A DNA stretch of 64,000 bases from Porphyridium purpureum (taxonomy: Eukaryota): contig VRMN01000006.1 in NCBI GenBank assembly GCA_008690995.1, positions 186,001 to 250,000 of the forward strand, given 5' to 3'. The position numbers and the translations under genes are program-made. The notes beneath the pieces were generated by a model. That model was not told the origin of the DNA. It did no database searches and worked only from the letters and a program-made list of their open reading frames with translations. Within the stretch, counting starts at the first letter, position 1; every line of letters starts with the position of its first letter. This document shows, piece by piece, positions 671 through 41,845 of the stretch.

Positions 671-1336
671 CCCGAGCCCACGGAGCCGTGGCCTAGCAAA
701 GCAGGATCGGCGAAGCCAAGCATGCGTCTGAAGTCGTGCCAGATAATCTTATCCACGTGTGCCCCAGTCAGTCCATCGGAGCACGTGGTGGTGAGTCCTG
801 GAGCTTCTCGTTTGTCACGCGTCGCGCAATGTGATCGTCCGTCTGCAGCACTTGTTCTCTTGCGCCACAAATCTGGCGCATCGAGCGCCCGAGCGGCTGA
901 ACAGCGGCGCTGTCAAGGAGGGGACAGAGGCCGATGCCCCATACCGTGCGTGCACGCATTCAGTGGCGGCTGAGCGCGCAGTACTGGAGTTCGGCTCGGA
1001 AACCGGCGTGATGGGAATGGGCGGGAGTGATGATGCGGACGTACACGACGTCTCCGGCTGGGTGCCAGCTAGTGCATTCGGTGCTCAGTGTGCCGCAGTG
1101 AAGCTTAACTTGGCTTCTGGCATTACACATGCATGTGCAAGAGTGTGACATACTGTTGGCCATCGAGACTATGTGGCTTCAGGAGTTGTTTAACCCGCCT
1201 GCCTACATGATACACACAGCGCTTCAAATAATGCGCGCTGATTCCAGGAGGGGGTTTCCGGGACATCGCCACTCGGCTGAAACTTTCTGCATAACCTTGC
1301 TATGTACATACAAACCCGCGATCAGTGGTTTTGCTC

Positions 1337-3911
1337 CTACTCCGGCTCTTGTCCATTCGTCTCCGTTGCTTCGTTGGCCTCTATTTCTTCGCGCAACATC
1401 GCAGTCAGGATTTCATCCGCCAGCTCTACTATGGACATGTTTCTGGCGTTCGCTGCCATACGCATTCTTTGGATTGTGCGTACTTGAAGCGCAAGGCGAG
1501 GATCGGAGCCTGTGTCCGCATTCCCGTTTCCTTCACGAGGTGCGTTCTTTTCTTTCCTTGTCCGGAGACTATTGTTGGAGCGTGACCCACCGAAATCCAT
1601 TGTTGAACAGAAATCACCAAACGATAGGTCAGGCGAGGATGCGGTCGCGTGTAGCCAGTTCTTAAGAATTGGCTCCAGGCTCGCCAAAAGATCGTCTTCA
1701 GCCAAGGATTCATGCCAAAGTAACCCGGCTCGGTCGCCGGCGGAAGATCCACCCAAGTAGACATCGAACGTTGGCCCATTTTCGCTTGCGAGTTGTCGTT
1801 GCAATAAACCGATCTCCCCGAGCGCACACACCCCTCGCGCAGACCTTCTCAAGTCAGAATATTCGAGCTTGACCGTCACTGGCCGAAGCTGAATGGAAGG
1901 CGTCTGCCTCGCCTGGTCAGCCGCCCAAGCATTCAAGCGTTTCATCACCGAGTTCAGTGAGATATGCGCAGCCTGCACGGCCGCTGGAGCGGCCGCTTTC
2001 ATGCCGTTCAGTGTACAAACAAAGGGCATGGACTCCCGATCCTCTTCCATCGATGGCGCTGGCGTGAACGGAAATGTGCCGTGAAATTTGATGTTGTACT
2101 CACCGAGCAACGCATCAATGTTCCGCAGTTCTGCTTCCTTGAAATTCCGGAAAATGAAATCCAGCGAGCATTTGGACGGCAAAACCTGAATCTCAAGATC
2201 ATAGACGTCAAGAAGCCGGCGAATGGCGCTCAAAATGCGCTGCTCGCCTGCATCCGAAATACCATCAGAGCCATCGAGCATCATGCGAAAACAATGGACT
2301 TCACGACTATACGGGGTACCGGGGATCCAACCACACGTGAAGCTAGCAGAATCCGAAACCGCAGAAGGTTCCGCGATATGACCCGACTCGACAGCTCCGC
2401 GCCACGACTCCAATTTTACACCACGCGCTATCAGTACTCTCCGTAACTTCTCAGGGGTAAATTTTTCCACGATGGAGAGCAGATCACATTCGGGGGATAG
2501 ATCACCGAGGGCGGCAATGAGAGTCAATACATCCGACTCGGTCTCCACAAAGCCCAAATGAGCGACATTCAAGCGGCCATCATGGGGCTTCCAAGCTGGA
2601 TTTTCGGTCAGAAGAGCGGCACCAAGTACCACATTGTATCCAAGCAGAGAGCCCTGGGCAGCTGGATCTGCGTCGAGAAGCGCAAGAAGGCCTAGATCAC
2701 AGGCGTAAATGTCTACACTGGTATCCATGTCTGGTGCACCAAACCGCACCGTCAGTATGGCGTGAGTGCCTGCCGACCGCAGAACGGTCCGCCGCTCATC
2801 CGCGCTTGATTCTGATCGCATGAGCAACTCAGTCCCACGCCATACCTCAAGATGGACACCTGTTGGTTGAAGCCGATGAGATAAGGACTGAAATGAGTCA
2901 AGGCACGATGGAGGTGACGTACGCAGAGAATACCAGCTCAGACATTCAGGCACGTGGCTCACACTCCGATTCGCGTCCCCTCCCTGCTGCGACGTGGTCG
3001 CCTCGCACAGCATGTCTACGTCGTTATCGAGCAAGGCGTTCATCTCATCGCCCGTAAGCCCATTCAAGAGAAGGCTTCCGTCTGGTGAAGTGGACAGCGT
3101 GACTTTGTTTCCCAGGCTTTCCGAAAGCGAGCAAAGGCGCTTAAAGAGAGCCGCGGGATAGACACTATCTCGCGTGATCACGCGCAGAGCATAGCCTTCT
3201 TTAGAAGATGGTAGTCTCTTCCGAACGCTACCCTCTGAATCCAGCTCTGATGCTTGCACAGCCAGAAGGTTGCTTCTGCTCGTGTCGCTGTGACGTTTGG
3301 ATCGCCATTGAGACTGCAGCGCAAGTACAGTAGCATGAAGTAAAGGGGAGGAATAAGAATATCCGCAAAGACGCATGAGGTCAGTTACCGTACGACACAT
3401 CTACGTGTTACGTGCTCATCAAGGAAGAGCCCAACGATGAGAACTTGAGTCCTGTATGGTTTGCCTCGAACAATCATTGCCGGCAGGCTATGCCAAGATA
3501 TGGGATATACAGGTCGGCCAAGTAAAACCCCACAAGGGGTATGGCCGTTGCTCTAAGGCGTAAGAGTTGCGAACTATACACCACATGATACTGAAGCATA
3601 CATCGCATGCCAGCAGGTGCTTCGTCACTCAAGTGGGAGTAGCCCTTCCGTTCGACGGGAAAGGATTACCCCGCCTATACACGACCGTCAAGCTCGCGAT
3701 CAGTCTTGACTGCAGGTGTCCGCGTCCACCAACCCATCCCATCCACGATCGAACTCTAGCTTACCTGTGTGCCTCGCACTCGTGCACCGGGTGACGACGG
3801 CCGTGCCGTCGCGGCCCATATCGCGCGGCGCCGCAGCTGCGGCTCACGCACCGGCTTACCGCGCTGGATCTGGCGCTCCAGCACCACACTAGATGGTGCG
3901 ACAAACGCCAT
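1337..3911 (-). CDS. Degenerate ferredoxin-sulfite reductase (SiR)-like protein with C-terminal ribbon-helix-helix; putative exon 1 3765..3911, putative intron 3401..3764, main exon 1337..3400
   Basis: The 687-aa ORF is colinear with plant/cyanobacterial SiR: YALRVITRDSVYPAALFKRLCSLSESLG, SVDIYACDLG..GYNVVLG, FDVYLGGS..LEPILKNW..SFGDFC. The cofactor Cys motifs are absent. An upstream MAFVAPSS... exon ends in CAG|GTAAGC and joins in phase 0 to CGTAG|ATG at 3400. Confidence 0.75.
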
Positions 3912-5280
3912 ACCTAAACATACAGCGCCCACATCCACTCCTACATTCTCTTCACCACGCCCCCATCGCCACCGCCACTCTCACGTACGCGTCGTCCGCT
4001 CGCCGTCGCACCGGCCGCACGCGCGCGCGGAACAGGCCACAAGAGGTACAGCGACACTGTACTTCTGCGACTCGGTTCGCGCCGAATACAGGTTCGGCGC
4101 CGCGTGCCGCGGCTGCGCGACTGTGCAGCGGCGCGCCTGCTGCCTGATATCCGCGGGCGCGGACCATGGCGCCATGTGACTGTTGTGCCTCTGCCGCGAA
4201 ACGCCGCGAGTAGCAGCGGTCCGTCTGGAAAGAGAGCCGCTGCGCTCGAGTTCGGCGAATGAGGTGCTGAATACCTGCCGACAGCAACAGTGCCTGCGCG
4301 CTGGCTGCCATGTTGGCTGCACTGGACGCTGTGCTTTGGGCTGGGCACGACGAGAATTGGAGCTTGAGCTCGCGCTGAGCGATGTTGCGTCCAGAGACAG
4401 AAAAGGCACGACTGGTCTTTGGCAGGTGCAAGGAGGAAAAATGCCTCGGTTTCAGTCCTGCGGCTGTAGAAGTCTTTTTGGCACGTCCGAAACGCGCGGG
4501 CGCGCGGCATTTCACCCGGGGCCGCTTGCTGGGCGTCGAGCCGGCCTGGTCAGACCCAACCGCTCCGGCGCCAAGAGGACAAACAGCGGAATCACGGCAA
4601 AGTCCTCACGGCGTAATGTCGCGACTGGGCACCGCGCTGGACTGCGACCGCACCCGCAAAACGCCCGGGAACGGTCCAAGCGGACCACGCACGACGCATG
4701 CCATCCGACCGTCAGTAGCACGCATGCGTCTCGGGCGCCTTGCACACGCTAAAGTATATCGTCTGTCAAGTCGAAGACAAAGCGGCGTATCCGTGTCTGC
4801 TGATGAAGCTGGCTCTTGCTTGGATCGGTCCGGGAATCAGGTACAAGAGTAAGGTGGCGATTTTCGACATCGGGAGACAGCGAGTTCCGGCGGGAAGGAG
4901 AACGACAAGGGGTTTGACACGTGAGGGACAAGGCGTGATTTCTGGACAGTGATTGTTATGCCGAAGCGTCGAGGTAAAGATTGATTTCCGTGAGACGTGT
5001 GGACGCGCAAAGTGTTGGGTCAAAATCACCAGCGCCCGCGAGGGGGTCGATACGCTGGAGGTTTTGATTTGGGACGGTGAATTGGATGGAGTACGATGGC
5101 GACAAAGGTCCTTGGAGCAAGGCGGCATGGAGAGAGTTTGGCGATGAGAGCAGCAGTGGGCAGCTGATCGGAATGCTAAACTCTTGCCCGGGGGAATATG
5201 ATGCGGAGAGGGGCAACAATGTCGATGCGGAAAAAAGGCAAAGTCGCGACCTAACGTCGCGTCCACGAGGCGGCCTTAGA

Positions 5281-6864
5281 ATGAGACTGTTTGCGAGTCT
5301 CTTGTTTGTTTTTCTTCTTTCAATTGCATCAGGAACTACTTTGATGTGGATTCAGCAAAGTGCTAGTCTCGTTGTGAGTGTTCACGCTGTGCATGAACAG
5401 ACTATGGCAGGTATGTTAGAGAACACCGTGGCGCAAGGTGATGAACATCTGTCCGCGACAACACATTTGCTAGTTATCAAGAAACCAGGGGACACGGCCA
5501 GCAGCCGTCTACAACGGACATTGCGGAGTGACCGCGAGTCACCGCGCAATAACTCCGTACCTGGTGCACAAGAAGGTATGAGCGGTGCAGATGCGACGCG
5601 CCGCCAAGCAAAGGAAGACGTTCGGCAGGGGCAAGAAGACCCGGAATCGCAGCACCTCGTGACTGTGAAGGTCATAGCAGGTCCGGATAGTGTGAATTTG
5701 GACAAACTTGAGGAAAGCAAGATAGCGGCAAGCCCACGCTACGTGACTGCCGATCTCAATGAACTCCATGCTGTGCGAGCTGCTCTGAGCGAAGGGAGCG
5801 TGGTAAATAATGAGCCTGATGGCGTCGGGGAAAAGTCCAGCAGCGTGACAGGGGCTTCACTTGAGACCCGGGTCCGCCATGTGTTGAATGAGGTTCGGGA
5901 ACCTCCAAGCAAATCAGTCTTGCTTCGCCCTCAACCCACGGCAGGCATTGGAGTCGGCCTGGCAAAATCGTTTAGACGTAGTCTTGGGTCTGAGAATGTA
6001 GTGGCAGATCCTGTGAAGGCAGAGACACGCGCCGCGAAAAGTCAGGGCTTTGCGGGATTGTCCAGTCCCACTGGAGCAATGCGCAAACGAGCAGCGTGTG
6101 CGCACAGGGCCTTGAAATTTACGAAAAGGTCGTGTGGGTACAAGTCCGGACTGCGGATGTTGGGCGACAAGGTGTATGGTGGGTGGAAAATGTGTGTGGA
6201 GGGTATTCACGAAATGGCGAAAGAGCAGCGCGAAGCGCTCGTTGTCTACGGTTTCGGGGTTGGCTTTGACACGTCGTGGGACGAAGCGCTCATGTCCCAG
6301 TACGGCTTGAACGTCCATGCGTTTGATCCCACGCCGAGGTCGCTCGAGTATGTTCGTGGGCGGAAAGAACTTCAGACGCCGTTGTTTCATCACAGCGCCG
6401 TGGGTTTGGGCACGACGAACCGAAATGAAACGTGGTATGAGCCGCGGAAGGGACGGTGGGAGGCGTCCAACAGCAAATACAACCACCTGAAGGACGGCAT
6501 TGCGCACGAAGTGGAAGTCAAGACGCTGAAGACACTGATGCAGGAGCGCGGTCACACGCACATTGACGTGCTGAAAATTGACATTGAGGGAGCGGAGTAC
6601 GAGGTGCTGGTTGACCTTCTGAAGGATGGCGGATGCCTGCCGACGAACCAGCTTCTGATGGAGACGCACTCGTACCAAATGAAGCAGCTGTGGAAAGCTC
6701 ACGGAGAAACCGTGGCGCTCCTTGAGCAGGCTGGGTTCAGGCTTGTGTTCGCAGGCCCAGGCAATCACGAGCACACGTGGATTCGTTTTCTTGACAGATC
6801 GAGGATGAGGGATCATCCAGGAAAAAGTCATGGGGACATGAATCAAAGCAAGGTGATATCGTGA
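5281..6864 (+). CDS. FkbM/Methyltransf_22-like SAM-dependent methyltransferase, type II membrane protein (copy 1)
   Basis: N-terminal TM (LFASLLFVFLLSIA), long stem, then YGGWKMC, VYGFGVGFDTSWD, VHAFDP and HIDVLKIDIEGAEY motifs. Start placed at MRLF; the ORF is open from 5077. Confidence 0.85.
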   Translation: MRLFASLLFVFLLSIASGTTLMWIQQSASLVVSVHAVHEQTMAGMLENTVAQGDEHLSATTHLLVIKKPGDTASSRLQRTLRSDRESPRNNSVPGAQEGMSGADATRRQAKEDVRQGQEDPESQHLVTVKVIAGPDSVNLDKLEESKIAASPRYVTADLNELHAVRAALSEGSVVNNEPDGVGEKSSSVTGASLETRVRHVLNEVREPPSKSVLLRPQPTAGIGVGLAKSFRRSLGSENVVADPVKAETRAAKSQGFAGLSSPTGAMRKRAACAHRALKFTKRSCGYKSGLRMLGDKVYGGWKMCVEGIHEMAKEQREALVVYGFGVGFDTSWDEALMSQYGLNVHAFDPTPRSLEYVRGRKELQTPLFHHSAVGLGTTNRNETWYEPRKGRWEASNSKYNHLKDGIAHEVEVKTLKTLMQERGHTHIDVLKIDIEGAEYEVLVDLLKDGGCLPTNQLLMETHSYQMKQLWKAHGETVALLEQAGFRLVFAGPGNHEHTWIRFLDRSRMRDHPGKSHGDMNQSKVIS

Positions 6865-9422
6865 GTCAAAAATCAAACTACAAGCACACAAATGAAGAGA
6901 CCGATACGGCCCTTCCTTACTTTGGCAAAAGGGCTAAACACGCGCAATAATTTGCTCGGTGATGTCGTTTTGCAGAAATGGTCGTGTTGACGTACAACGT
7001 GAAGAGAGCTTTCGGCAAGCCATACATTCTATCGCGCCGCTTCGTTGAGCCTGTTAATGACGCCATGGGGAGTCCTACTTCAATTTGCAAATGGATTGTA
7101 GTTTTGCAGTCGTGGAATCTGCCGGCAATTGAGAGAGAGATCGCGAGCACGTTTCCAGAATGCTTCCTGGGCCCCTGCAAGGCGAGCGCGAGTGATCGAG
7201 AGTGCTTACCCCCACGTGTAAGCTGCAGTGCAAGTACGCCATTACTCTGATTCCCTGGTTGAATGCTTCGCTGCACTCACTCACGGTACTTCAATGCCAC
7301 ACTGTTGTACGGAGAGACGTGCTGGGTTCCTATCGACGCACGTATTCAAGTTTTCCATGAACCCCAAAACATTAACTCAAGTTCCAAGTCATGAGCGAAC
7401 TGGTGGTAAACCGGCAAGCGGACGCACGAGAAGCAGCGGGACTCCAAGCTCGTTGAGGTGCTACGAAGCACAGCCCGTCCTTATCTGTGTGCGCGCCACC
7501 GCCGCGTCTCGCGTTGTGCCTGGCTTCACGAGCACGTGCGGTCGACTGCGGCTCTCCGTTGCGACGCCTTCTCACACAGTCGTCCAAAGCCAGCGCGCTC
7601 ATTACCTACTCGCGTGAATAACTTTTCTGTCATGCCACATGAGCTCACAAGCAAGTGCGCCGCAAGGCGCCAAGCCGTTCAAGGCCCCAAGCGGAATCAC
7701 TACTGAATTGAACGGCGCTTCACAGACGGTTTAACGGCGCGCCGCATAAATTTAGACGGAGTGTACAGTGCTGAACCTCGAGTTTAAATTCAGAATCGCG
7801 GTGTGTGTTTGTGTGGCTTACAGCGCGTGTGGTCACGCGGCTATTTGTTTATCAGTAAAGCGACGCGGTTTGATATGCGATGTTTGAACTGTACCTGCTT
7901 CGAGCTCGCTCATCGTTGAAGGTTGGCGTGCATGCTTCGACGACGTGAGACAAGAGTTTGGACTGCGTTGCGTTTCGCCCTTGGCGTGCGGCTCCTCGCA
8001 CTGTCGACTCAAATGGTCGGCACGCCCAAGCGCGCGCATGGGAGAAATAAAGAGCTTTCTTCCGGCCGCCGGCGGCTGGAGCCGGCTGGCGTCCGGCTGG
8101 GCGCACCCAGCTGCGGAGTCAACCGACCCGCCCGCCCGCGTGCGGAGGTTTGCGTCCGCGAGGCCGGTCAAGATTGCCACGGCAATGTTGCTTGTCGTGG
8201 CCCTGGGTGCGCTTGTGTTCAAGCTGCACAGCATATCTTTGTCGCATGACGCCTTTCTCGCGACGTTCGGGAATCATCATCGGTTTCTCGCGGACATCGG
8301 AGCCGTGGCGGCTGTGGGCGGCGAGGGGCTGAGCTCCGACGGCGCGCCCCAGGATAATGAAGCCCCGGACAAAAAGCACGTGGAAGTGGATAAAGCACAG
8401 ACGGTGAAAAACACAGAACCCCTCGGAATAGACAGCAGTCGCACGTCTGGAGGGTTGATCCATGTCTCATCGAAACGCGCTGATATTCAAAGCAATCGGG
8501 GAGCTGTAGAACATACTCAGGCGCAGAAAGACGGAGCACTTGATCAGCCTGCAGTTCCAAGCAACATCTCATCCGTCAAGACTAACAGAGACCATATTGA
8601 CGATATAGAAGTGCGACAAGGCGAAAGCAGAGTCGCGGCTCCAGTTTTGAACGAGTCAAAGTTGTCACGCGCAGATTCGCCGAGCGAGTTGGCCGGATCC
8701 GATGCAAGCAGAATGCAACCTTTGCGCCAAACATGCGCCGAGGAAGCATTGTCCTTCAGAAAGTGGCCGTGTGAGCAAAAGGGAGGACTGCGGATGTTGG
8801 GCGACAAGGTGTATGGTGGGTGGAAAATGTGTGTGGAGGGTATTCACGAAATGGCGAAAGAGCAGCGCGAAGCGCTCGTTGTCTACGGTTTTGGGATTGG
8901 CTTTGACACGTCGTGGGACGAAGCGCTCATGTCCCAGTACGGCTTGAACGTCCATGCGTTTGATCCCACGCCGAGGTCGCTCGAGTATGTTCGTGGGCGG
9001 AAAGAACTTCAGACGCCGTTGTTTCATCACAGCGCCGTGGGTTTGGGCACGACGAACCGAAATGAAACGTGGTATGAGCCGCGGAAGGGACGGTGGGAGG
9101 CGTCCAACAGCAAATACAACCACCTGAAGGACGGTATTGCGCACGAAGTGGAAGTCAAGACGCTGAAGACACTGATGCAGGAGCGAGGTCACACGCACAT
9201 TGACGTGCTGAAAATTGACATTGAGGGAGCGGAGTACGAGGTGCTGGTTGACCTTCTGAAGGATGGCGGATGCCTGCCGACGAACCAGCTTCTGATGGAG
9301 ACGCACTCGTACCAAATGAAGCAGCTGTGGAAAGCTCACGGAGAAACCGTGGCGCTCCTTGAGCAGGCTGGGTTCAGGCTTGTGTTCGCAGGCCCGGGAG
9401 ATCATGAGCACACGTGGATTCG
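6148..9422 (+). repeat. Direct repeat of about 640 bp (6148..6785 and 8785..9422) covering the methyltransferase catalytic domain
   Basis: Copies align at an offset of 2637 with roughly 8 mismatches counted by eye. Confidence 0.95.
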
Positions 9423-9471
9423 CTTCGAAGAGGAGAAAGGAGAAAAGACGAATCAGAAGGATTCTGTTTGA
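8038..9471 (+). CDS. FkbM/Methyltransf_22-like methyltransferase, type II membrane protein (copy 2)
   Basis: TM IATAMLLVVALGALVF. The catalytic domain is almost identical to copy 1, but the stem differs. Confidence 0.85.
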   Translation: MGEIKSFLPAAGGWSRLASGWAHPAAESTDPPARVRRFASARPVKIATAMLLVVALGALVFKLHSISLSHDAFLATFGNHHRFLADIGAVAAVGGEGLSSDGAPQDNEAPDKKHVEVDKAQTVKNTEPLGIDSSRTSGGLIHVSSKRADIQSNRGAVEHTQAQKDGALDQPAVPSNISSVKTNRDHIDDIEVRQGESRVAAPVLNESKLSRADSPSELAGSDASRMQPLRQTCAEEALSFRKWPCEQKGGLRMLGDKVYGGWKMCVEGIHEMAKEQREALVVYGFGIGFDTSWDEALMSQYGLNVHAFDPTPRSLEYVRGRKELQTPLFHHSAVGLGTTNRNETWYEPRKGRWEASNSKYNHLKDGIAHEVEVKTLKTLMQERGHTHIDVLKIDIEGAEYEVLVDLLKDGGCLPTNQLLMETHSYQMKQLWKAHGETVALLEQAGFRLVFAGPGDHEHTWIRFEEEKGEKTNQKDSV

Positions 9472-9826
9472 CCAGAGCGCTCCTGTTGCCGCCAAGTCTT
9501 TTATCCCACACTTGCACCCGTGTACATGCCTTACGTGGCGACGTGTATCGGTCCACTTTCCGTCCTTTAGCGGAACCCGCTTAAATCATCAAGGATAGAC
9601 GCATATCTCGACCAATGAACATTATGGTGTAGGACGTTTTTGCTTCTTCCGGTGCGATCGATGCCGCTAGCTTGAGGTCCGTCTGCGAGCGCCTCTCCCA
9701 TCTTTGCAAGACAGACACACACGCGGACACGCCTTTACCACTCATTCGTGATGACGTTCCCAAAAATTAGAGGTTGGACGTGAGGAGAAGGCATCATTGG
9801 CGTGAGGGGCGCGTACCACCGAGCGA

Positions 9827-10921
9827 ATGGCGCCCGCGCTGCAGCCTTCAAGGCTTTTGGCAGGTGTGTGCGTGTTCCTGTTCGGTTTGGCTCTGGGTAG
9901 CGTTCTATCATCTGCTCTGCGCGCTCATGAGGTGAGGCATGCGATCGAGATCAGGACTGGCCCCGGACTGGCTCACGGCTTTGCGCCCGCGCCAGACAAC
10001 GTCAAGCTCATGCGCCCGGCTGACATGATAACATTCAAGTCCTCGGAAACACATCCACGGCAAAGCCAATCGTCAAGACAAGATGGTCGAGTGGACGTCA
10101 AGGAATTGGTTAAACGTGGCGCAGTCAAAGTGTCAAGTATGAACGCATCAAGTGCGTCACGCGCCTCGGGCGCGACGAGCCGTAGTGACGGCGCTTCACA
10201 AGCGAGTAAAGATTCTCCCAAGTGCGCGCAAGGTGCGTTGCAGTTTAGCAAGCGAGACTGCTCGGATGAGAAGAATCTCGTCTGGGTCGGGAATCCTACA
10301 TATGGCGGTTGGAAAGTGTGCATGACGAGCATTCGAAACATGCCGCGAAAAAAGCGTAAAGGGCTTGTCGTGTACGGATTTGGTGTCGGAACAAACACGT
10401 CTTGGGATGAAGCATTAATTAATGACTATGGTGTTCCCGTGCACGCCTTTGACCCGACACCGAAATCAATCGCGTACGTGCAGAATCGCGAGGAGCTTCA
10501 GACACCCATGTTCAAGTTTAGCGCTGTAGGCATCGGTGACGCAGACCGTGAGGAGACTTGGAATATTCCGCGAAGAAGTGTGTCGCAGAGTAAGTACAAC
10601 CACCAGGATAGCGGCATGAGCACGGAGGTTGAAGTGAGAAGTCTGACATCGATCATGAAGGAACGAGGCCACACATACCTCGATATCTGTAAGATTGACG
10701 TGGAAGGGGCAGAATACGAGGTGCTAATCAGCCTGCTGGAGGACGGCGGGTGTCTACCGACCAACCAGCTGCTCATGGAAACACACTCCTACCAGGTCGC
10801 CGGACTGCAGAGCGCTCACGTCAAGACAAAGGCTCTTTTGGGGAAGGCGGGTTTCAAGCTTGTCAGCGCTGGCATTGGAGGCCACGAGCACACATGGATC
10901 CGCTTTCAATCGCGGCCTTGA
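9827..10921 (+). CDS. FkbM/Methyltransf_22-like methyltransferase, type II membrane protein (copy 3, older paralog)
   Basis: TM LLAGVCVFLFGLALGSVL, plus YGGWKVC, VYGFGVG, VHAFDPTP, KIDVEGAEY and GGCLPTNQLLMETHSYQ shared with copies 1 and 2. Confidence 0.88.
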   Translation: MAPALQPSRLLAGVCVFLFGLALGSVLSSALRAHEVRHAIEIRTGPGLAHGFAPAPDNVKLMRPADMITFKSSETHPRQSQSSRQDGRVDVKELVKRGAVKVSSMNASSASRASGATSRSDGASQASKDSPKCAQGALQFSKRDCSDEKNLVWVGNPTYGGWKVCMTSIRNMPRKKRKGLVVYGFGVGTNTSWDEALINDYGVPVHAFDPTPKSIAYVQNREELQTPMFKFSAVGIGDADREETWNIPRRSVSQSKYNHQDSGMSTEVEVRSLTSIMKERGHTYLDICKIDVEGAEYEVLISLLEDGGCLPTNQLLMETHSYQVAGLQSAHVKTKALLGKAGFKLVSAGIGGHEHTWIRFQSRP

Positions 10922-19226: not shown

Positions 19227-22019
19227 TCATTCACCGTCAAAGGTCTCCTTCTCGTCATACTTTGTTCGCGGTTCTTGATCAAAGTCAGTGTATCTACTAT
19301 CGAGGACGTCCTTGTCGATATTCGTGTCGTACAAGAAGTCGTCTTCGCCTCGCACCACGCGCACCGTAACCGGTGGAGGAGGTGGGGGTGTTTCTCTCTG
19401 GACATCCTTGTCGGTTTTCGGTTGCTGCACCTTGCTCGCTGAAGACGTGGATTCCTTCTTGCTACCGGGTGCGCTCTTCGGGGATGCCGATGCTCCTGCT
19501 TTCCCGGAATCGCCAGTTCCGCTGCTGCCGCTGCTGCCAGGCCCTGCAACAACCTCTCCGGACGAAACCAGGCCACTGCTGGGGCTTTTTTCAGTTCCAA
19601 AGATCTTGATCTGCCGCGGCAAGTCTTCTTCTTTCACCTTTGGCGCCTCAGTGGGCCCCGCACCTTGAGAACCAGTTCCTGGTGGCCCCTCACCTGGGGT
19701 CGGCTTATGTTTATCAGGATGTTCGCGGCCGTCGTGCTCCTTTCCGGCCTTATCAAATGGTGCTTTCTCGACAGGTCTGGTGCCAGAAGTCACGGAAGGA
19801 TCGCGCGACAGCAGGGCATCCGCTCCGCTTAAGGAAGGCGGCGATCCAGCAGCAGCAGCAGCAGCAGGACTTGACGGACCGCTGTCGCTCCGAGTGTCCC
19901 TGGACGGCGGAAGTTCATCCATGAAGAACGGATTACCCGTGTAGCTGTACCGCGTCTGCTCTGACGCGAAGCGGGCACCGTTCTTCTTGATGACGTCGTA
20001 CACCATCAACACGACGTCTTGCTGGACGCGGCGAAAGTCAGCCAAGAAGACCGACTTGGTGTAACACGAGAGCCAGATCATGACATACAGGGTATCGACG
20101 GATTCAACGTGACAAATGCGATGGCATCGCGGATCGAGATCGTTGTTTTCTTTCAGGCGCTGAGAGATCTGGTCGCAAATCGTTCCCGACTTGCCCAAGT
20201 CCTCCAGACGCAGCCTGATATCCTGTCGGATGCGCCGATTTGTCATTCGGCTTGGGTTCTCCATCACCATGGTCGAAAATCGCGAGTTCGGAACGTACAC
20301 AGGCCGTTTGTCCCATCGCCGAATACGTGTCTGGTACCATCCAATCTGCTCCACTACGCCATCAATCTGGTCGTTTTCGATCGAGCGTACCCACTCGCCC
20401 TGCACGAATGGGCGCGTTGCAATGACCATCAGCCCGCCAAAGAAGTTTGACATAATCTCACGACCTGCAAAACCGATCGCCACACCACCGATACCACCGA
20501 ACGCCAGCACAGTCTGCACATTCACGCCCATTGTGTCGAAGGAAATCAAAATTGCAATGATGAAGACAATCATCGTGGCGATACGCGACACCACGTCAAC
20601 CTGCGCCTTATCCACACGGGGGTCTCCATCGGTGAAGCGCGCGCGAATTAAATCGATCCACCTCTTCAGAAACCAGGCGGCTGCGAAAATGAAGCCCAGT
20701 TCACGAAGCATGCGGATGTACTTGACGAGACCAGTGGCAACGAGAGGCCGAGACACGACTTCGGCAAGCGAGGTTCCCACGATATAAACCGCCAAAAACT
20801 CGAGCGGCCTCTGCATGCATGAAATTACCGACCGCTCATATGGTAGCGCATTTCGATTGGGGTCGAATTTGCGGTGCAACCACTTTAGCGTGGTCGCAAC
20901 GCCCTGACGCAATAGAAGAACCAAACTGACAAAAAAGACGGCTTCCCAAGTCAGCTTTGCGACCTGCGGTCCTGTTGGAAGCGGGATGCCCGCGCTGGGA
21001 ATTACCTGAATGGCCCGCTTCACAGTCTGAATGACACGGGTCTTCTCAACGCGCGACCGCACGAGCATGCCCCGCAACGCTTCAGCCGCACGTGACATAC
21101 GTTCACTCTCCTGTGACTGGAGCTGGTTTGATCCGCGTGCACTCAAGTTTCCGCCCGCGTCCGACTGGGCCCTTTGTTGCGCTCCAGGGCCGTCTTCAGA
21201 TTTTGAATTTCGGCTGGACGCTTGAGATGCAGCTTCCATCTTTGACTGACTGGTACCATGCTGCTGTCCTTCTCCGGATTGTCCTTGTGTCGACTTTCCA
21301 TTTGCACCGTTTGCACTACTCGCACTAATGCCAGCTCCATTCGGAACCGCATTGCCAGATGACTGCAAGTCACTCTGCTTTTTCGCCTGGCGCTGTTCCT
21401 GAGACTGTTGTTGTTGTTGTTGTTGTTGCTGCTGCTGCTGCTGCTGCTGAGATGCTTGCCTTTTCCCGTTACTTCCTGTCCCGTTTTCCCTCGTGATTTT
21501 TGTGACATCTATGCTTGACACATGAATACTGTGTTCTTCAGCTTCCAGAGAGTCCAACGGAAGCGTCGTCTGACCAACTACTGGATTCACGCCCATCGTG
21601 CCCGCCGCTGACCTCACATTGAACTGCTCCTCACTGATAGCATTGCCACAAAGAGCCACGGGAGTCACAGACACAACATGCCACTCGTCGCTGTGTCCAT
21701 CGGAACTTGCGATGGCATTCGCAGCAAACACGCCAGACGTAGCAGCGGAAACGCGGCGCTGTTTTATCCTTAACAGAACTCTTTTCTCCTTCACAGCCAG
21801 AGCCTCACGCTGCTCGTCAACCTGTTGACGCTCGGAATGTGCGGCCAGGTTCTGACCGCGTCTCGACCTGTTCGCGAATGAGCAGCATCTCACTGCATGC
21901 GCGCAGGAGCTTGGTACGTCACTTCTTCGCAAACGGAGCCACTTCCACGGCGATGCACAGACGAACGCCGCGCTCACACCACTGTGACGCGTCAGCCGAG
22001 CGTTTTGTTGCGCGAACAT
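19227..22019 (-). CDS. MscS-family mechanosensitive channel (MSL1-like) with long low-complexity extensions
   Basis: LAFGGIGGVAIGFAGREIMSNFFGG, RPFVQGEW, GVVEQIGWYQTRIR, YVPNSRFS and ENPSRM. Start placed at MFAQQ; the ORF is open from 22112. Confidence 0.9.
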   Translation of the reverse strand: MFAQQNARLTRHSGVSAAFVCASPWKWLRLRRSDVPSSCAHAVRCCSFANRSRRGQNLAAHSERQQVDEQREALAVKEKRVLLRIKQRRVSAATSGVFAANAIASSDGHSDEWHVVSVTPVALCGNAISEEQFNVRSAAGTMGVNPVVGQTTLPLDSLEAEEHSIHVSSIDVTKITRENGTGSNGKRQASQQQQQQQQQQQQQQQSQEQRQAKKQSDLQSSGNAVPNGAGISASSANGANGKSTQGQSGEGQQHGTSQSKMEAASQASSRNSKSEDGPGAQQRAQSDAGGNLSARGSNQLQSQESERMSRAAEALRGMLVRSRVEKTRVIQTVKRAIQVIPSAGIPLPTGPQVAKLTWEAVFFVSLVLLLRQGVATTLKWLHRKFDPNRNALPYERSVISCMQRPLEFLAVYIVGTSLAEVVSRPLVATGLVKYIRMLRELGFIFAAAWFLKRWIDLIRARFTDGDPRVDKAQVDVVSRIATMIVFIIAILISFDTMGVNVQTVLAFGGIGGVAIGFAGREIMSNFFGGLMVIATRPFVQGEWVRSIENDQIDGVVEQIGWYQTRIRRWDKRPVYVPNSRFSTMVMENPSRMTNRRIRQDIRLRLEDLGKSGTICDQISQRLKENNDLDPRCHRICHVESVDTLYVMIWLSCYTKSVFLADFRRVQQDVVLMVYDVIKKNGARFASEQTRYSYTGNPFFMDELPPSRDTRSDSGPSSPAAAAAAGSPPSLSGADALLSRDPSVTSGTRPVEKAPFDKAGKEHDGREHPDKHKPTPGEGPPGTGSQGAGPTEAPKVKEEDLPRQIKIFGTEKSPSSGLVSSGEVVAGPGSSGSSGTGDSGKAGASASPKSAPGSKKESTSSASKVQQPKTDKDVQRETPPPPPPVTVRVVRGEDDFLYDTNIDKDVLDSRYTDFDQEPRTKYDEKETFDGE
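21405..21449 (-). repeat. (CAG)n(CAA)n tract encoding poly-Gln in MscS
   Basis: ctg/ttg runs on the plus strand; 15 consecutive Q in the translation. Confidence 0.95.
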
Positions 22020-23058
22020 GAACTCTTCTGTTGCGCTGTCCGCGCCACCACACGTCACACATTTGTCAGCAGGCTCCGTGCGCCCACGATTGAGCACGTG
22101 GCCTTTCGTCATCTCATGCTCGTGTGCAAACTACCCACGCGCACGCCTATGCCTCCTCCACTTCCCCCGCTCCAATCTCCGGCTTTCACCTCTTTCCACT
22201 TCGGCCACGCATGAGCTACATTCTCCAATCCAACTCCACAGGCTCGTTATCACAAAACGAGGCCGTGTCATCATGGAAGCACTGGCCGCCCAGGCAGGGC
22301 CGCTACGACTTTCGAAACCGTGAACACGGGCACATGCGGGCCGGAGTTACATGAGCAACGGGCTATGAGCTGCGTGCAGACCTGCGCATGAAAAGATGAT
22401 TGGATCGTCCAGCATGCCAAACTCGAGCGGGATTCGGGAAGCCGCATCGAAAACTGACGGGCTTCGCTAGTTAAAGGAAAAAGAGAAGAGAAAAGGACAA
22501 GACAGCCCGACCTTTGCAGAACTCCATCTTGCTCACGCCACTCTGCAGCAGCCGGACTTCCACGCCGCGTACCCGTCGCCAGTGGAGCTCCTCGGTCCGA
22601 AGTCAGAGCCTCGCAGCTATGCCACAGTTTGGGCAAGTGTATGTGTAGGCGTGCATGCGTGTGTGTATGTGGGTGTGTCCATATGTAAAGCCTGAGCTTG
22701 CGTTGTGGTTGAACCGCGAGAATATCCTAGCTGGCGCTCGGCGCGACATGGCGCCGCCTCGCCGCCTTGCCGTCATGCCATGTCGCAGCAGCCACCTGTG
22801 CCACGGGACCAGCCGGCCAAGACTGCCTCCCGCGCACAAAGTACAGTGACGTCGTATTCACTGTACCGACGTCGAAAGGAGGGCGAGATCGTCGGGGCGA
22901 GCGCGGCGGCGTGCGCACAGAGGCTGAGAGGTATGTTTGGTGCTTGGTGGCGAGCGTGAAGACGAGGAGCCGCGTGGGTTGTGCGAGCAGTCGGTGGAGG
23001 ACGGAAGTGCCACCCGGCGTGTTGGCGTCCCGGCTTGCGTTTGACGCCAGGAAAAAGC

Positions 23059-25368
23059 ATGCCTGAAGTGGCGTTTGTAGGCGATGGCGCAGCGCCGCGC
23101 GCAGTGCGGCACGTGCCAACACCGCGCGCGTGTCCGGTTGCGTTCCGCGCATCACGGCCGACAGGCCTACGTCGTGCGCAAGTAGACGGACGCCGCGCGG
23201 CGCTGAAGAGCGCGCGGGTGCTCACGTGTATGGCGCTGTCGGCCGAGGAACGCGCGAGAATGGTTGACATGGAACTCGCGTCTTCGTCGCCCGCATCGCC
23301 CTCCGCGAAGGAGCAGGTCGGAAACGACCAGGAAGATTCGGCGTTTAAGAATGCGTTTCCGCTTGCCGCCGTCGTGGGACAGGACAAAATCAAGCTCGCG
23401 CTGCTGCTAGCCGCTGCAAACACCAAAGTCAATGGCATCTGCATTTCAGGGCGCCGCGGCACGGCCAAGTCTGTCATGGCGAGGGCCATTCACGCGCTGC
23501 TGCCTCCGATCGAGGTGGTAAAGGATTCTTTCTGGAATGAGCCTCCGCCGGCAGAGCGCGACGATACGCTGCAAACGCAGGTCATTCGAGCGCCGTTCGT
23601 GCAGGTGCCGTTGAATATTACGGAGGATCGACTCATCGGCTCGGTCGATGTCGAGCAATCCGTCCAAACGGGTCAGACTGTGTTCCAGCCAGGACTGCTG
23701 GCTAAGGCACATCGTGGGGTCCTGTACATTGACGAGATCAATCTCTTGGATGAAGGGATTGCGAACATTCTGATCAACGTGATCTCCGATGGACAAGTGC
23801 GTATCGAGCGCGAAGGCATTTCGATTGTGCATGAGTGTCGGCCGCTGGTCATCGCAACGTATAACCCGGAGGAAGGTGACTTGCGTCCGCACCTGCTTGA
23901 CCGCATCGCGATCGTGCTGTCGGCTGACAACGAGCCGCTGGATATGGAGCAGCGCCTCGAAGTTGTCGAGTCGGCGACGCAGTACGCCAATGACCCGGCC
24001 AAATTTGTGGAGACTGTCAATTCAGAGACAGACCAAATGGCCACGAACATTGTTCTTGCGCGCGAATACGTGAAGGACGCCACCCTTACAAAGAAGCAAA
24101 TCGAGTACATCGTCACGGAGGCGATTAATGCCGGCGTGCAAGGCCACCGGTCCGAAATTTATGCGATCGAAATTGCACGAGCTGCGGCGGCATTGGAGGG
24201 CCGAGATGTGGTGAGCGCGGATGACCTCAAACTTGCGGTCCAGCTCGCGATTTTCCCCCGCGCGCGTTTTGCGCCGCAGAACCCAGAAGAGGAGCAGCAA
24301 CAACAGCAGCAGCAACCACCACCGCCGCCGCCACCGTCCCCAGAAGATGACGACAAACCGGATGACGCGCTAGATGAGGAAGAAGACGACGAGGCGGACG
24401 AAGAGCGCGACAGCAACCAGGACGAGGAGGATGAGGAGCCCGAGGACGCGCCGGAGGTGCCCGAGGAGTTCATGTTCGACGCCGAGGCAGTCGACGTGGA
24501 CCCAGACCTGCTGCAAGGTACCAAGAGCCAAAAAGGCGGTGGTTCGGGCAAAGGCGGGCTGATTTTCTCGCAGGACCGTGGTCGGTACATCAAGGCGATG
24601 CTGCCGCGAGGCAACGTGATGCGCCTTGCTGTGGATGCTACGTTGCGTGCAGCGGCACCCTACCAGAAAGCGCGGCGACTGCGTGCACCGGAGGGTTCTC
24701 GACGCTCCGTGTTTGTCGAACAAGGCGATATGCGGATCAAGAAGCTGGCGAGAAGAGCCGGCGCCTTAATTGTGTTCCTGGTCGATGCGTCTGGCTCTAT
24801 GGCGCTAAATCGCATGAATGCTGCAAAGGGTGCGGCGATTAACTTGCTCACAGAGGCGTATCAGACGCGCGACCGTATTGCACTGATTCCGTGCCAGGGC
24901 GAGCGTGCCGAAGTGCTGCTTCCGCCGACCAAGTCGATCAGCATGGCCAAGAACCGCCTGGAGACAATGCCGTGCGGCGGCGGCTCTCCATTGGCCCACG
25001 GGCTTTTGCAGGCCGTGCGCGTAGGTACGAACGCGCAAAAGACGGGCGATACCGGCAAAGTCGTGGTTGTGTGCATCTCGGACGGCCGGGCAAATGTACC
25101 CCTGCACATCAGCGAGGGCGAAGAGCGCGAGGAGAAAATGGACAAGAAGGAAATGAAGGAGGAGATTCTTACGATCTGCCGCCAAGTTGGAGCACTTCCT
25201 GGCTTCCATTTGCTTTGCATTGACACAGAAAACCAGTTCGTATCTACTGGCGTTGCCAAGGATATGGCCAAGGCCGCGCGGGGCAACTACCATTATATTC
25301 CAAAGGCATCGCAAGACGCCGTGACAAACGTCGCGAGCAAAGCGATTTCTAACATTCGCCAAATGTAG
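23059..25368 (+). CDS. chlD: Magnesium chelatase subunit D, plastid-targeted
   Basis: [38 protein letters not shown], Pro/acidic linker and vWA domain [11 protein letters not shown]; transit peptide containing AFVG. Confidence 0.97.
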
Positions 25369-33552: not shown

Positions 33553-34644
33553 TTACAATGCAATTTGATCCTTTCTCGGCGTTACACGCATCAGAACCGC
33601 CTTGGCTGTCACAGGCTGAGTATCTTCATTGACAAGCCCGACCATTTCAAGCTCGTCTGCGCAGACAACCGTTTGGTGCCGCAATGCCCAGCCGGGCGAC
33701 AGTGCAACGACATCACCGACAAGAATCAAGGTCGGACTCTCCAGTGCAGCGCGCTGGATGCGCTGCTCCAGCTCGTGAATGGTACAAAACACCACGCGTT
33801 GTTCTGGTGTCGTACCGCGCTCCACCGCGGCCACGGGAGTCTCTGGACTCAAGCCGTGCTCCACGAGCAGGTGCGACAGTTCTGCGGATGCACCTAGCCC
33901 CATGTAGATAACCAACGTTTCAGATGCATTCACGCTACCGCCGCGTAATCCCGCCAGTGCCTCTTCGAGCCCTTCCTTCAAGTGCCCGGTAACAAATCGG
34001 CATCCCTGCGCAATCCCGCGGTGTGTCAGTGGGATTCCCAGGTGCGCACCAATGCCCGCCGCACTGGTGATTCCCGGCACGGCTTGCACGCGAATACCGA
34101 GCGCCCTCAAGAACTCGGCCTCCTCCCCGCCGCGCCCAAATACGTACGGGTCGCCACCCTTCAGACGCACTATCACCTTGTGCTCTGGGTCGGACGCATA
34201 CATGCGGAGCAGATCGTGAATTTCCTCCTGCGTGCGTGTGTGCATACCCTTCTGCTTACCCACATACACCATGCGTGCATTTGGGTTCACAAACTCAAGA
34301 ATCTCCCTGGACACGAGCCGGTCGTACAATATCACATCTGCGTGCTGCATCAGCCGCACTGCTTTCAGCGTCAGCAACTCTGGGTCGCCCGGTCCCGTGC
34401 CCACAAGGTACACCGTTGCGCCTTGCGCAATGTCCGTTCGCTGCAGACGAGCGCGCAAACGTTCTCCCACCGAAGCGTCGTCGCTGGCACTTTTCTCACT
34501 GCCGCTGCCACGGCATACCATTCGCGCGCGGCCCGCAGCCTTGGCCGAGCGGCAAGGCCATCTCTGCTGTCTGGCGTACTGGCCCGTCGCAGGCTCACTG
34601 TGCTGCGTTGCCCTCGCAGCTACATTCACACTGGGAACAAACAT
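33553..34644 (-). CDS. UPM1: Uroporphyrinogen-III C-methyltransferase (siroheme synthesis), plastid-targeted
   Basis: VYLVGTGPGDPELLTLKA, YDRLVS, VRLKGGDPYVFGRGGEE, VPGIT, IPLTHRG and VERGTTPEQR; transit peptide MFVPS... Confidence 0.96.
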   Translation of the reverse strand: MFVPSVNVAARATQHSEPATGQYARQQRWPCRSAKAAGRARMVCRGSGSEKSASDDASVGERLRARLQRTDIAQGATVYLVGTGPGDPELLTLKAVRLMQHADVILYDRLVSREILEFVNPNARMVYVGKQKGMHTRTQEEIHDLLRMYASDPEHKVIVRLKGGDPYVFGRGGEEAEFLRALGIRVQAVPGITSAAGIGAHLGIPLTHRGIAQGCRFVTGHLKEGLEEALAGLRGGSVNASETLVIYMGLGASAELSHLLVEHGLSPETPVAAVERGTTPEQRVVFCTIHELEQRIQRAALESPTLILVGDVVALSPGWALRHQTVVCADELEMVGLVNEDTQPVTAKAVLMRVTPRKDQIAL

Positions 34645-35649
34645 GACTCTTTCGCTCCTTCCCGATACTCAACAAACCACCAAATGTCTGTCACGTCTAG
34701 CCAGCGTCCACCGGTAAAGCTGTCCCGCCCTTGTCTCCTAGAACACGTACAACCTTGTCACCGCAGCGAGCGACCCCGACAGCTTTATACCCGTATGTCG
34801 GAGTGCGACAGCACACCGCCAAGTCGCCCGGCCTCCTGCTAACGTTACTCAGGTGGGCGAACGTCTACCTCGCGCGAAGGAGGTGGCGCACGGATGAGAG
34901 CGAAAGCCCGCGCCGTCGTGCCTTGCCAGCCGTTGTCGAAATTCTCCTGCGCCGCGTCAGAAAGCCGTGTGGGGCCGCCGCACCTCTCGCGCGTACGTGT
35001 CGCGGTGTGGCGGTGTCGCGGTGTCGCGAGTTTCTTCACGGCTGCGGCGCGCGCGCAACACCACCACCGCGCGATGGCGGGTGTACAGTGCCGAACGCTG
35101 CGCCTATCAAAACGCGCTGTTTTACTAGGACGTCGCCATCGCGCGAAGTGTACTTCCACGTGTGGCGCGGTTGACCGGCTCATCGGTTCGAGCTCAACCG
35201 TTTTCTGTGTTCCATGTAAAACGTCCCGGTTTTGATAGAAAAACGCGCCACATCCCGAGATGTTCGGCCAAGTCGCGCGCTATTTCCGGTAGGAGCGGCA
35301 ACACATGGAGCGTGAAAGCGCTGCTCGTGCGGAGGTCCGTGGAGAATGGCGTCATTGTCGGTCGCGTTGCATTTGCCTCGAGGTCTGCGTCCTGGTTGCC
35401 GCGCGGGTCTCTGTGGTTCACGCAGCCTGCTGCGTCTGTGCGACACGCAGGTATAAAAGTACCCCCGCGTGGCAGCCGGAACGTAGCGAAGATTGGGAGG
35501 GACGCAAGACGTGACAGAGTGAACGGGTAGAGAGGACAGCAAAGGAACATCACGGCCGGCACGTCTAGGGTTGCGCTGTGACGTTGTTGGGGTAGCACAA
35601 GGGCGTGTGGGTTGGGCAGCACGGCAGGCGTGGACAGGTAAGGAGAAAA
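34645..35649. promoter_or_regulatory. Putative bidirectional promoter shared by UPM1 and nitrite reductase
   Basis: Divergent genes; TATAAA on the minus strand at 34784..34789 and TATAAAA on the plus strand at 35452..35458; 4x8-bp GTGT(C/G)GCG repeat at 34997..35028; central inverted repeat at 35168..35200. Confidence 0.55.
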
Positions 35650-41557: not shown

Positions 41558-41845
41558 TCCTGTCCACTCTCCACCGCATGTGCCCACCCAATGCGGCCCA
41601 ACTCCAACCCGCACACTCGATCGACGTACGCCAGCTCGCGCCCTTGTCCCACGCACGCACGAGCCAACAAAACACAGAAACTGGATTCGAAGGCCGTTGT
41701 ACAGTGTGAGGTACAGCCTCTTCTGATGAAACGAGGGCGTTTTACTATGTTCAATAAGCGACCTTCGCGCGGGATGCGGGGAAAGCGAACAGGAAGAAGA
41801 AGAGGAAGAAGAAGGAGGACGAAGGTGGGTGGGTGTGTGTGTTGG

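What the first reader, a model, noticed from the sequence alone, without database searches (positions are those of the whole stretch)
1385..1504. C-terminal CopG/MetJ-like ribbon-helix-helix on the SiR-like protein
Seen: DPRLALQVRTIQRMRMAANARNMSIVELADEILTAML shows an alternating beta-strand, helix A, a short turn and an SxxEL helix B, which is the RHH pattern. It follows a basic linker (RTRKEK). This bacterial-type DNA-binding fold is rare in eukaryotic nuclear genes and points to cyanobacterial endosymbiotic origin (inference).
Basis: partly seen in the sequence, partly recalled or inferred. Interest (0 to 1): 0.7.

Follow-up and report, generated by a model that had tools for sequence, protein, structure and literature searches.

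The report
Dead sulfite reductase keeps DNA-binding tail
This red-alga gene is a sulfite-reductase copy that has lost its iron-sulfur and catalytic residues yet keeps a worn version of the known bacterial-type DNA-binding tail, which here likely serves to pair proteins inside the chloroplast rather than to grip DNA.

Summary
The segment is real and is the ribbon-helix-helix (RHH)-type C-terminal peptide (CEP) already published for plant, cyanobacterial and red-algal sulfite reductases (SiR; PMC4898807). It aligns without gaps to 55 cyanobacterial tails; 2 of 20,000 shuffles and 0 of 13,100 other windows score as high. It is degenerate: 11 bits against at least 45.9 in cyanobacteria, ribbon position 2 Asp, position 3 Pro, local charge -1 against +2 to +7. 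Models give both helices but no strand. The new part is the carrier, a Porphyridium purpureum 'hypothetical protein': an SiR paralog with no CxxxxxC or CxxxC motif, no K215/K217 equivalents and no N-terminal block, so probably catalytically dead. The gene is transcribed; one of 4 runs shows an unannotated exon adding a plastid transit-like peptide, and the public 3' exon is unsupported. Its only relative of the same kind, in P. aerugineum, also lacks the lysines but keeps an intact basic ribbon. Best reading: a plastid pseudo-SiR whose tail likely mediates pairing, not DNA reading. DNA binding and dimer formation are untested; whether the genome holds a normal SiR could not be checked.

The parts
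3765..3911 (-). Unannotated coding exon 1 (49 codons from ATG 3911), red-algal plastid transit-peptide-like: Phe at position 3, 10 R/K, 2 D/E
   Evidence: Spliced joint in 1 of 4 runs (X12); in frame, 707-aa product; Phe motif per PMC7038456. Targeting is inferred.
3314..3764 (-). 451-nt GT..AG intron; its 3' part holds the ATG (3400) used by the public gene model
   Evidence: Contigs of X3, X4, X8 run into it and stop at 3663, 3638, 3571.
1337..3400 (-). 687-codon ORF (P0001); first 686 residues identical to P. purpureum FVE85_4668 / KAA8493531.1
1565..3193 (-). Degenerate SiR hemoprotein core (residues about 70-612), lacking the canonical N-terminal block
   Evidence: NCBIfam, cyanobacterial SiR profile E 1.4e-17, Foldseek to maize SiR E 1.4e-17, no match to the N-terminal block
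2738..2767 (-). Site of the lost RKFK motif (E. coli K215/K217); the protein has no lysine between residues 100 and 270
   Evidence: Alignments; sequence; residue roles from PMC11947256
1826..2017 (-). Site of the four Fe4S4/siroheme cysteines; only C462 and C525 remain, no CxxxxxC or CxxxC
1547..1564 (-). Basic stretch RTRKEK (613-618) at the start of a low-confidence linker, 14 residues before the RHH-like segment
1484..1507 (-). Degenerate ribbon, residues 632-639 (S-D-P-R-L-A-L-Q); only the invariant Arg (position 4) and the inward hydrophobics (5, 7) are kept
   Evidence: ribbon numbering from PMC3413123
1445..1483 (-). Helix A, residues 640-652
1358..1435 (-). Helix B from the S656 N-cap, extended into an acidic tail (net -6 after residue 669)
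1337..1339 (-). TAG stop; the public model instead splices 1340-1177 to add 71 residues, which the RNA contigs do not show

Best explanation
The segment is the worn-down ribbon-helix-helix tail of a duplicated, likely chloroplast-imported sulfite reductase that has lost its iron-sulfur and catalytic residues, and it likely now works as a pairing module (with a second copy or with the tail of an active sulfite reductase) rather than as a DNA reader. Shown: homology of core and tail to cyanobacterial SiR, loss of the cysteine motifs and lysines, an intact transcribed frame, a spliced 5' exon in one run, the changed ribbon. Inferred: no siroheme/Fe4S4 binding and no catalysis (about 0.85); plastid import (about 0.7); weak or no DNA binding (about 0.65); pairing through the conserved hydrophobic faces of helices A and B, which would let it act as a scaffold or damper of the active enzyme (about 0.4, untested). 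Identity of the segment as a CEP/RHH homolog: about 0.9.
For: Tail aligns gap-free to 34 of 34 cyanobacterial tails given and follows the SiR core collinearly in one profile match, residues 543-671. PSSM nulls 2/20,000 and 0/13,100. The tail profile (34 cyanobacterial rows plus this one) hits RHH structures AvtR 6e-5, a CopG-family protein 0.003, ParG 0.026; members of alignment A2 hit Pfam RHH_1 (7 of 44). The first 11 of 14 listed Foldseek rows for the tail model are RHH-type chains at 0.4-1.3 A over 29-44 columns. Core positions L636, L638, A650, L660, L665, L669 score positively while D633, P634, A637 score negatively. Catalytic loss. Still under selection: intact 687 codons, 4 of 5 coding differences in run X8 synonymous and the fifth V658L (binomial p 0.015-0.05); a counterpart in P. 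aerugineum at 28% identity. Intact nitrite reductase in the same window, so it is not needed as one.
Against: No pairing partner was shown, and a normal SiR in this genome could not be looked for. The strand that RHH dimers need is not predicted in either monomer model, and no cyanobacterial tail was folded as a control. Foldseek E-values for the tail are 2.4-7.8 and VIA Z at most 5.7, and the models were built on cyanobacterial alignments, so they lean towards that fold. The P. aerugineum counterpart keeps a canonical basic ribbon (charge +6) and four near-register cysteines, so the family need not share this role. Exon 1 is seen in only 1 of 4 runs; the other three stop inside the intron. 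Five SNPs are few.
Confidence: 0.42

Rival explanations
1. The tail is still a working dimeric RHH that ties the dead enzyme to plastid nucleoids; the duplicate kept SiR's DNA-binding second job and dropped catalysis.
For: Invariant ribbon Arg (55 of 55) kept as R635; R645, R647 on helix A and RTRKEK upstream could grip the backbone. The P. aerugineum ribbon is canonical (28.5 bits). A bean CEP is sufficient to move Arabidopsis SiR to nucleoids (PMC4898807).
Against: Asp at position 2, Pro at 3, Ala at 6, each in 0 of 55 cyanobacterial tails at positions 2 and 6; charge -1 against +2 to +7 and an acidic tail of -6. PMC4898807 reports that cyanobacterial and C. merolae SiRs carry CEPs yet are not on nucleoids (citing Sato 2004).
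Confidence: 0.25
2. A decaying duplicate with no function; the tail is a passive remnant.
For: About 20% identity to cyanobacterial SiRs in alignment A2, 47 of 158 invariant columns kept, saturated branch, only 28% identity to the P. aerugineum protein.
Against: Unbroken 687-codon frame, transcript contigs in 4 of 4 runs, 4 of 5 coding SNPs synonymous, retained in two species.
Confidence: 0.15
3. A repurposed metal- or redox-sensing protein: the core binds a different cofactor or ferredoxin and signals through the RHH tail.
For: P. aerugineum keeps CxxxxxC and a CxxxxC at the ligand sites; P. purpureum keeps C462, C525 and the R153 equivalent R145.
Against: At most 2 of 4 ligands in P. purpureum, and the cofactor loops are low-confidence in the model (442-477, 513-517); the cysteines are not shared between the two species.
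Confidence: 0.12
4. The segment is an unrelated amphipathic helix pair that resembles RHH by chance.
For: No direct Pfam or PDB sequence hit; no strand in the models.
Against: Same position and gap-free register as the CEP of homologous SiRs, nulls 2/20,000 and 0/13,100, and a clear CEP in the P. aerugineum counterpart that shares T642, R645, A650, M655, S656, A661, E663, T666, A667.
Confidence: 0.06

Closest known systems
C-terminally encoded peptide (CEP) of ferredoxin-dependent sulfite reductases (PMC4898807)
   Same: Same place after the SiR core, same length and register, same helix A-turn-helix B pattern, invariant ribbon Arg.
   Different: Ribbon positions 2, 3 and 6 changed to Asp, Pro, Ala; adjacent basic patch lost; acidic extension; carrier is not a complete enzyme.
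Ferredoxin-sulfite reductase (TIGR02042; maize SiR, PDB 5H8V/5H8Y/5H92)
   Same: Fold and domain order; plastid-type leader; CEP.
   Different: 35.2 bits against cut-off 731.5; no CxxxxxC/CxxxC; no K215/K217 equivalents; N-terminal block absent.
CopG/MetJ/Arc/ParG ribbon-helix-helix superfamily (Pfam RHH_1 and kin)
   Same: Helix A-turn-helix B geometry and hydrophobic pattern.
   Different: No direct profile hit; ribbon not predicted; base-contacting positions 2 and 6 not polar/basic; fused to a large enzyme-derived core.
Cyanidioschyzon merolae SiRB (SiR paralog acting as nitrite reductase; recalled, not read here)
   Same: A red-algal SiR duplicate with changed role.
   Different: SiRB keeps its cofactors (recalled); this one has lost the ligands, and P. 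purpureum has an intact nitrite reductase in this same window.

Membership tests
SiR CEP | About 40-50-residue peptide C-terminal to an SiR core, at the end of the protein | tested here: met
   stop at 1337-1339 read through unspliced in 4 of 4 runs
SiR CEP | Significant, gap-free match to a CEP profile | tested here: met
   11.0 bits, 2/20,000 shuffles, 0/13,100 windows; but far under the cyanobacterial leave-one-out minimum of 45.9
SiR CEP | Directs the protein to plastid nucleoids | not testable with these tools
   Needs localisation; not universal even among CEPs (PMC4898807)
Ribbon-helix-helix superfamily | Helix A - turn - helix B with conserved hydrophobic core | tested here: met
   geometry matches RHH chains at 0.4-1.3 A but with E 2.4-7.8
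Ribbon-helix-helix superfamily | N-terminal eight-residue beta-strand with alternating pattern | tested here: inconclusive
   Hydrophobics at 5 and 7 kept, Pro at 3; coil in one model, helix in the other; monomer models, no control
Ribbon-helix-helix superfamily | Hydrophilic base-contacting residues at ribbon positions 2, 4, 6 (PMC3413123) | tested here: not met
   Asp, Arg, Ala; cyanobacteria R/Q/K/S, R, S/G/T/N/R. P. aerugineum: Lys, Arg, Ser (met)
Ribbon-helix-helix superfamily | Intertwined homodimer | tested here: inconclusive
   See Tried and rejected
Ribbon-helix-helix superfamily | Direct match to a curated RHH profile | tested here: inconclusive
   None for this segment; only 7 of 44 alignment members hit RHH_1 at E 0.1, so the test is weak
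Active ferredoxin-sulfite reductase (TIGR02042) | Four cysteines as CxxxxxC and CxxxC (ligand role recalled; invariant in 55 of 55 here) | tested here: not met
   Neither motif occurs; only C462 and C525 lie in the region
Active ferredoxin-sulfite reductase (TIGR02042) | Anion-binding R83, R153, K215, K217 (PMC11947256) | tested here: not met
   R153 equivalent kept (R145); R83 equivalent depends on the alignment (R73, I75); both lysines absent
Active ferredoxin-sulfite reductase (TIGR02042) | Score above the curated cut-off | tested here: not met
   35.2 against 731.5 bits
Active ferredoxin-sulfite reductase (TIGR02042) | SiR fold and domain order | tested here: met
   Foldseek E 1.4e-17 to maize SiR, TM 0.37-0.44, model pLDDT 61.6 built on an SiR alignment; the Atlas's own low-confidence model also lists NIR_SIR clusters
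Red-algal plastid-imported proteins | N-terminal Phe-based transit peptide (PMC7038456) | tested here: inconclusive
   Present on exon 1, seen spliced in 1 of 4 runs; no targeting predictor was available

The most novel reading that the evidence does not exclude
Porphyridium has split sulfite reductase's two jobs: a duplicate gave up catalysis and was kept for its RHH tail, as a non-enzymatic plastid nucleoid protein or as a pseudoenzyme that pairs with and tunes the active SiR, possibly with plastid and non-plastid forms from two transcript starts. The two species would be two stages of the change (cysteines and ribbon intact in P. aerugineum, both eroded in P. purpureum), a natural experiment on what the CEP is for.
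Probability: 0.3. Interest if true: 0.65.

Novelty: new variant of a known kind. Interest (0 to 1): 0.4.

Why it matters
Why cyanobacterial and plastid SiRs carry an RHH tail is open: PMC4898807 shows it can direct SiR to nucleoids in land plants, but says cyanobacterial and C. merolae SiRs have it without being nucleoid proteins. A copy that kept the tail after losing catalysis separates the two functions in a culturable alga. I found no paper describing such a paralog (searches; open-access library only). It also corrects the public gene model at both ends. The RHH observation alone is already known and would score low.

Tried and rejected
Homodimer prediction of residues 626-680: no answer, score 0.02 in 2 of 2 runs against a mark of 0.32, alignment not used, no controls folded; not evidence either way. 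Direct RHH searches of the segment in Pfam, NCBIfam and PDB sequences: nothing; the Sirohm_synth_M hit (E 0.19-0.38, 11 residues) is treated as chance. Tree of 31 rows (quick method only): both Porphyridium branches saturated at 10 changes per column, so neither their placement nor their pairing can be read from it; their pairing rests on P0003 being P0001's best non-self hit (58.1 bits against 42.2), while P0003's own best hits are cyanobacterial SiRs, so orthology is likely, not shown. Searches for more family members: three word-based searches returned only self hits, the representative search 13 proteins with one of this kind, metagenome contigs none; absence elsewhere is not shown. VIA-align of the tail: top rows RHH-type but Z at most 5.7, mixed with unrelated helices. 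No exon-1 cover in runs X3, X4, X8 is only a weak hint of a second start; contigs drop minor branches and no DNA run was laid. The 758-residue public model was rejected as the main form (X3 and X8 bridge the whole 1177-1340 stretch unspliced; no joint listed), a minor spliced form is not excluded. SiRB-type nitrite reductase role rejected (ligands lost; intact NiR present). Earlier findings: none in 3 look-ups. Supplements of PMC6811547 and PMC7038456 held no row identifying this gene or a P. purpureum SiR (the latter lists only differentially expressed genes). The supplementary figures S1-S2 of PMC4898807 (red-algal CEP alignments) are pictures and were not seen.

Full report
Observation. Window 1385-1504 (minus strand) encodes residues 633-672 of a 687-codon ORF at 1337-3400. 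The first 686 residues are identical to Porphyridium purpureum 'hypothetical protein' FVE85_4668, a 758-residue public model. The quoted peptide, the S-x-x-E-L start of helix B and RTRKEK (613-618) are present.

Gene structure. I laid 4 of the 24 listed runs; X3 is RNA by record, the other three by guess, all are contigs. All four run through the public model's 3' donor without a joint, and X3 (1133-3663) and X8 (1058-3571) bridge its whole 1177-1340 intron, so the TAG at 1337-1339 ends the main form and the segment is C-terminal. X12 shows a joint that skips 3314-3764, a GT..AG intron, in frame with an ATG at 3911. The spliced product is 707 residues; the 49 exon-1 residues start Met-Ala-Phe-Val and hold 10 R/K and 2 D/E. 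PMC7038456 (passages) describes an N-terminal Phe motif for red-algal plastid import; the nitrite reductase in this window starts similarly and the P. aerugineum counterpart has Phe-Val at 7-8. Import is inferred. The other three runs stop inside the intron with no exon-1 cover, a weak hint of a second start; replication with more runs is open.

The carrier. It matches SiR models far under their cut-offs (PRK13504 57.9 of 457 bits, TIGR02042 35.2 of 731.5) and no NIR_SIR Pfam model. A pattern scan gave 120 loci; 73 held complete SiR frames over 500 residues, of which 55 (all cyanobacterial by title) have a long C-terminus and 18 do not. A profile of the 55 matches the protein at E 1.4e-17, core and tail in one collinear stretch. 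The AlphaFold model (44-row alignment with 34 of the 55; mean pLDDT 61.6) finds maize SiR first, partly circular. Four cysteines invariant in the 55 are reduced to C462 and possibly C525; no CxxxxxC or CxxxC occurs (their ligand role is recalled). PMC11947256 (passages) names R83, R153, K215, K217 as anion-binding; the alignment places K215/K217 in the RKFK motif, and this protein has no lysine between residues 100 and 270. R153's equivalent is kept; R83's depends on the alignment. The canonical N-terminal block is not found in the protein, in its upstream frames or in P0003. Catalysis is therefore unlikely (inference).

The tail. It aligns gap-free with cyanobacterial tails. Those tails are RHH-like: a profile of them hits AvtR, a CopG-family protein, ParG, Mnt and Omega among 13 PDB sequences at E up to 1, and alignment members hit eleven or so RHH-type Pfam families weakly. 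With a matrix from the 55 cyanobacteria only, the best window starts at 633 (11.0 bits); 2 of 20,000 shuffles and 0 of 13,100 control windows reach it; cyanobacterial leave-one-out scores are 45.9-93.0 and P. aerugineum scores 28.5. PMC3413123 (passages) gives ribbon positions 2, 4, 6 as the base contacts. Here they are Asp, Arg, Ala with Pro at 3; the cyanobacteria have R38/Q12/K4/S1, R55 and S28/G15/T8/N3/R1. Charge over the ribbon and the 8 residues before it is -1, against +2 to +7 in all 55 and +6 in P. aerugineum; an acidic tail (-6) follows. Models give both helices confidently but no strand: coil in one, helix in the other. The first 11 of 14 Foldseek rows are RHH-type chains (ParG, PutA and StnY by title or call; MazE-mt9, MatP, YiiF, CopASO recalled as RHH) at 0.4-1.3 A, but none is significant (E 2.4-7.8).

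Relatives and selection. Among 1.84 billion representatives 13 proteins scored under E 0.001; the best non-self one is a 722-residue Porphyridium aerugineum protein (E 7.6e-11), 28% identical. It also lacks the lysines and the N-terminal block, but keeps CxxxxxC, a CxxxxC and a canonical ribbon. In run X8, 4 of 5 coding differences are synonymous and one is V658L (p 0.015-0.05): a weak sign of purifying selection.

Mechanism. I commit to a plastid pseudo-SiR whose tail pairs through helices A and B, with itself or an active SiR, and does not read DNA (0.42). Rivals: working nucleoid anchor (0.25), decaying duplicate (0.15), altered sensor (0.12), chance resemblance (0.06).

What is known. PMC4898807 (parts 1 and 2 of 3 read: abstract through results and discussion) reports the CEP, models it on CopG, shows that a bean CEP moves Arabidopsis SiR to nucleoids, finds CEPs in cyanobacterial and red-algal SiRs and proposes endosymbiotic origin. 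Cyanobacterial ancestry here rests on the CEP (55 of 70 cyanobacterial, 0 of 3 verrucomicrobial SiRs) and on P0003's best hits; the tree was uninformative. No paper on a degenerate Porphyridium SiR came up in searches (listings only). Verdict: new variant of a known kind, interest 0.4.

Noticed in passing
window 33553-37389: Intact ferredoxin-nitrite reductase (35650-37389 +, PRK09566 635.7 bits, cut-off 594) lies head to head with a tetrapyrrole methylase (33553-34644 -), likely the siroheme-pathway methyltransferase: an enzyme beside its cofactor-synthesis gene, about 30 kb from the pseudo-SiR.
   Followed up: partly
window 3314-3911: Public gene model FVE85_4668 misses exon 1 and adds an unsupported 3' exon; three runs stop at 3571-3663 inside the intron, which may mark a second transcript start giving a protein without transit peptide.
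   Followed up: partly
L008, L012, L015, L023, L027, L039, L047, L056, L062, L066, L068, L076, L080: All 13 complete Prochlorococcus and Synechococcus SiRs in the sample lack the RHH tail, which 55 other cyanobacterial SiRs have.
   Followed up: no
window 5086-10921: Three tandem FkbM-type methyltransferase ORFs on the plus strand.
   Followed up: no
window 19227-25368: MscS-type mechanosensitive channel and a Mg-chelatase ChlD-like AAA+vWA protein, divergently arranged.
   Followed up: no
window 40352-44581: ORFs on opposite strands (MRS2-like Mg transporter, 40352-42481 -; MIZ/SP-RING protein, 41591-44581 +) overlap by about 890 nt as called from the first ATG; a CNNM-type transporter is adjacent. 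True starts not checked.
   Followed up: no
P0003, residues about 590-650: The P. aerugineum protein has an acidic insertion of about 55 residues before the SFGEFC motif, absent from P. purpureum and cyanobacteria.
   Followed up: no
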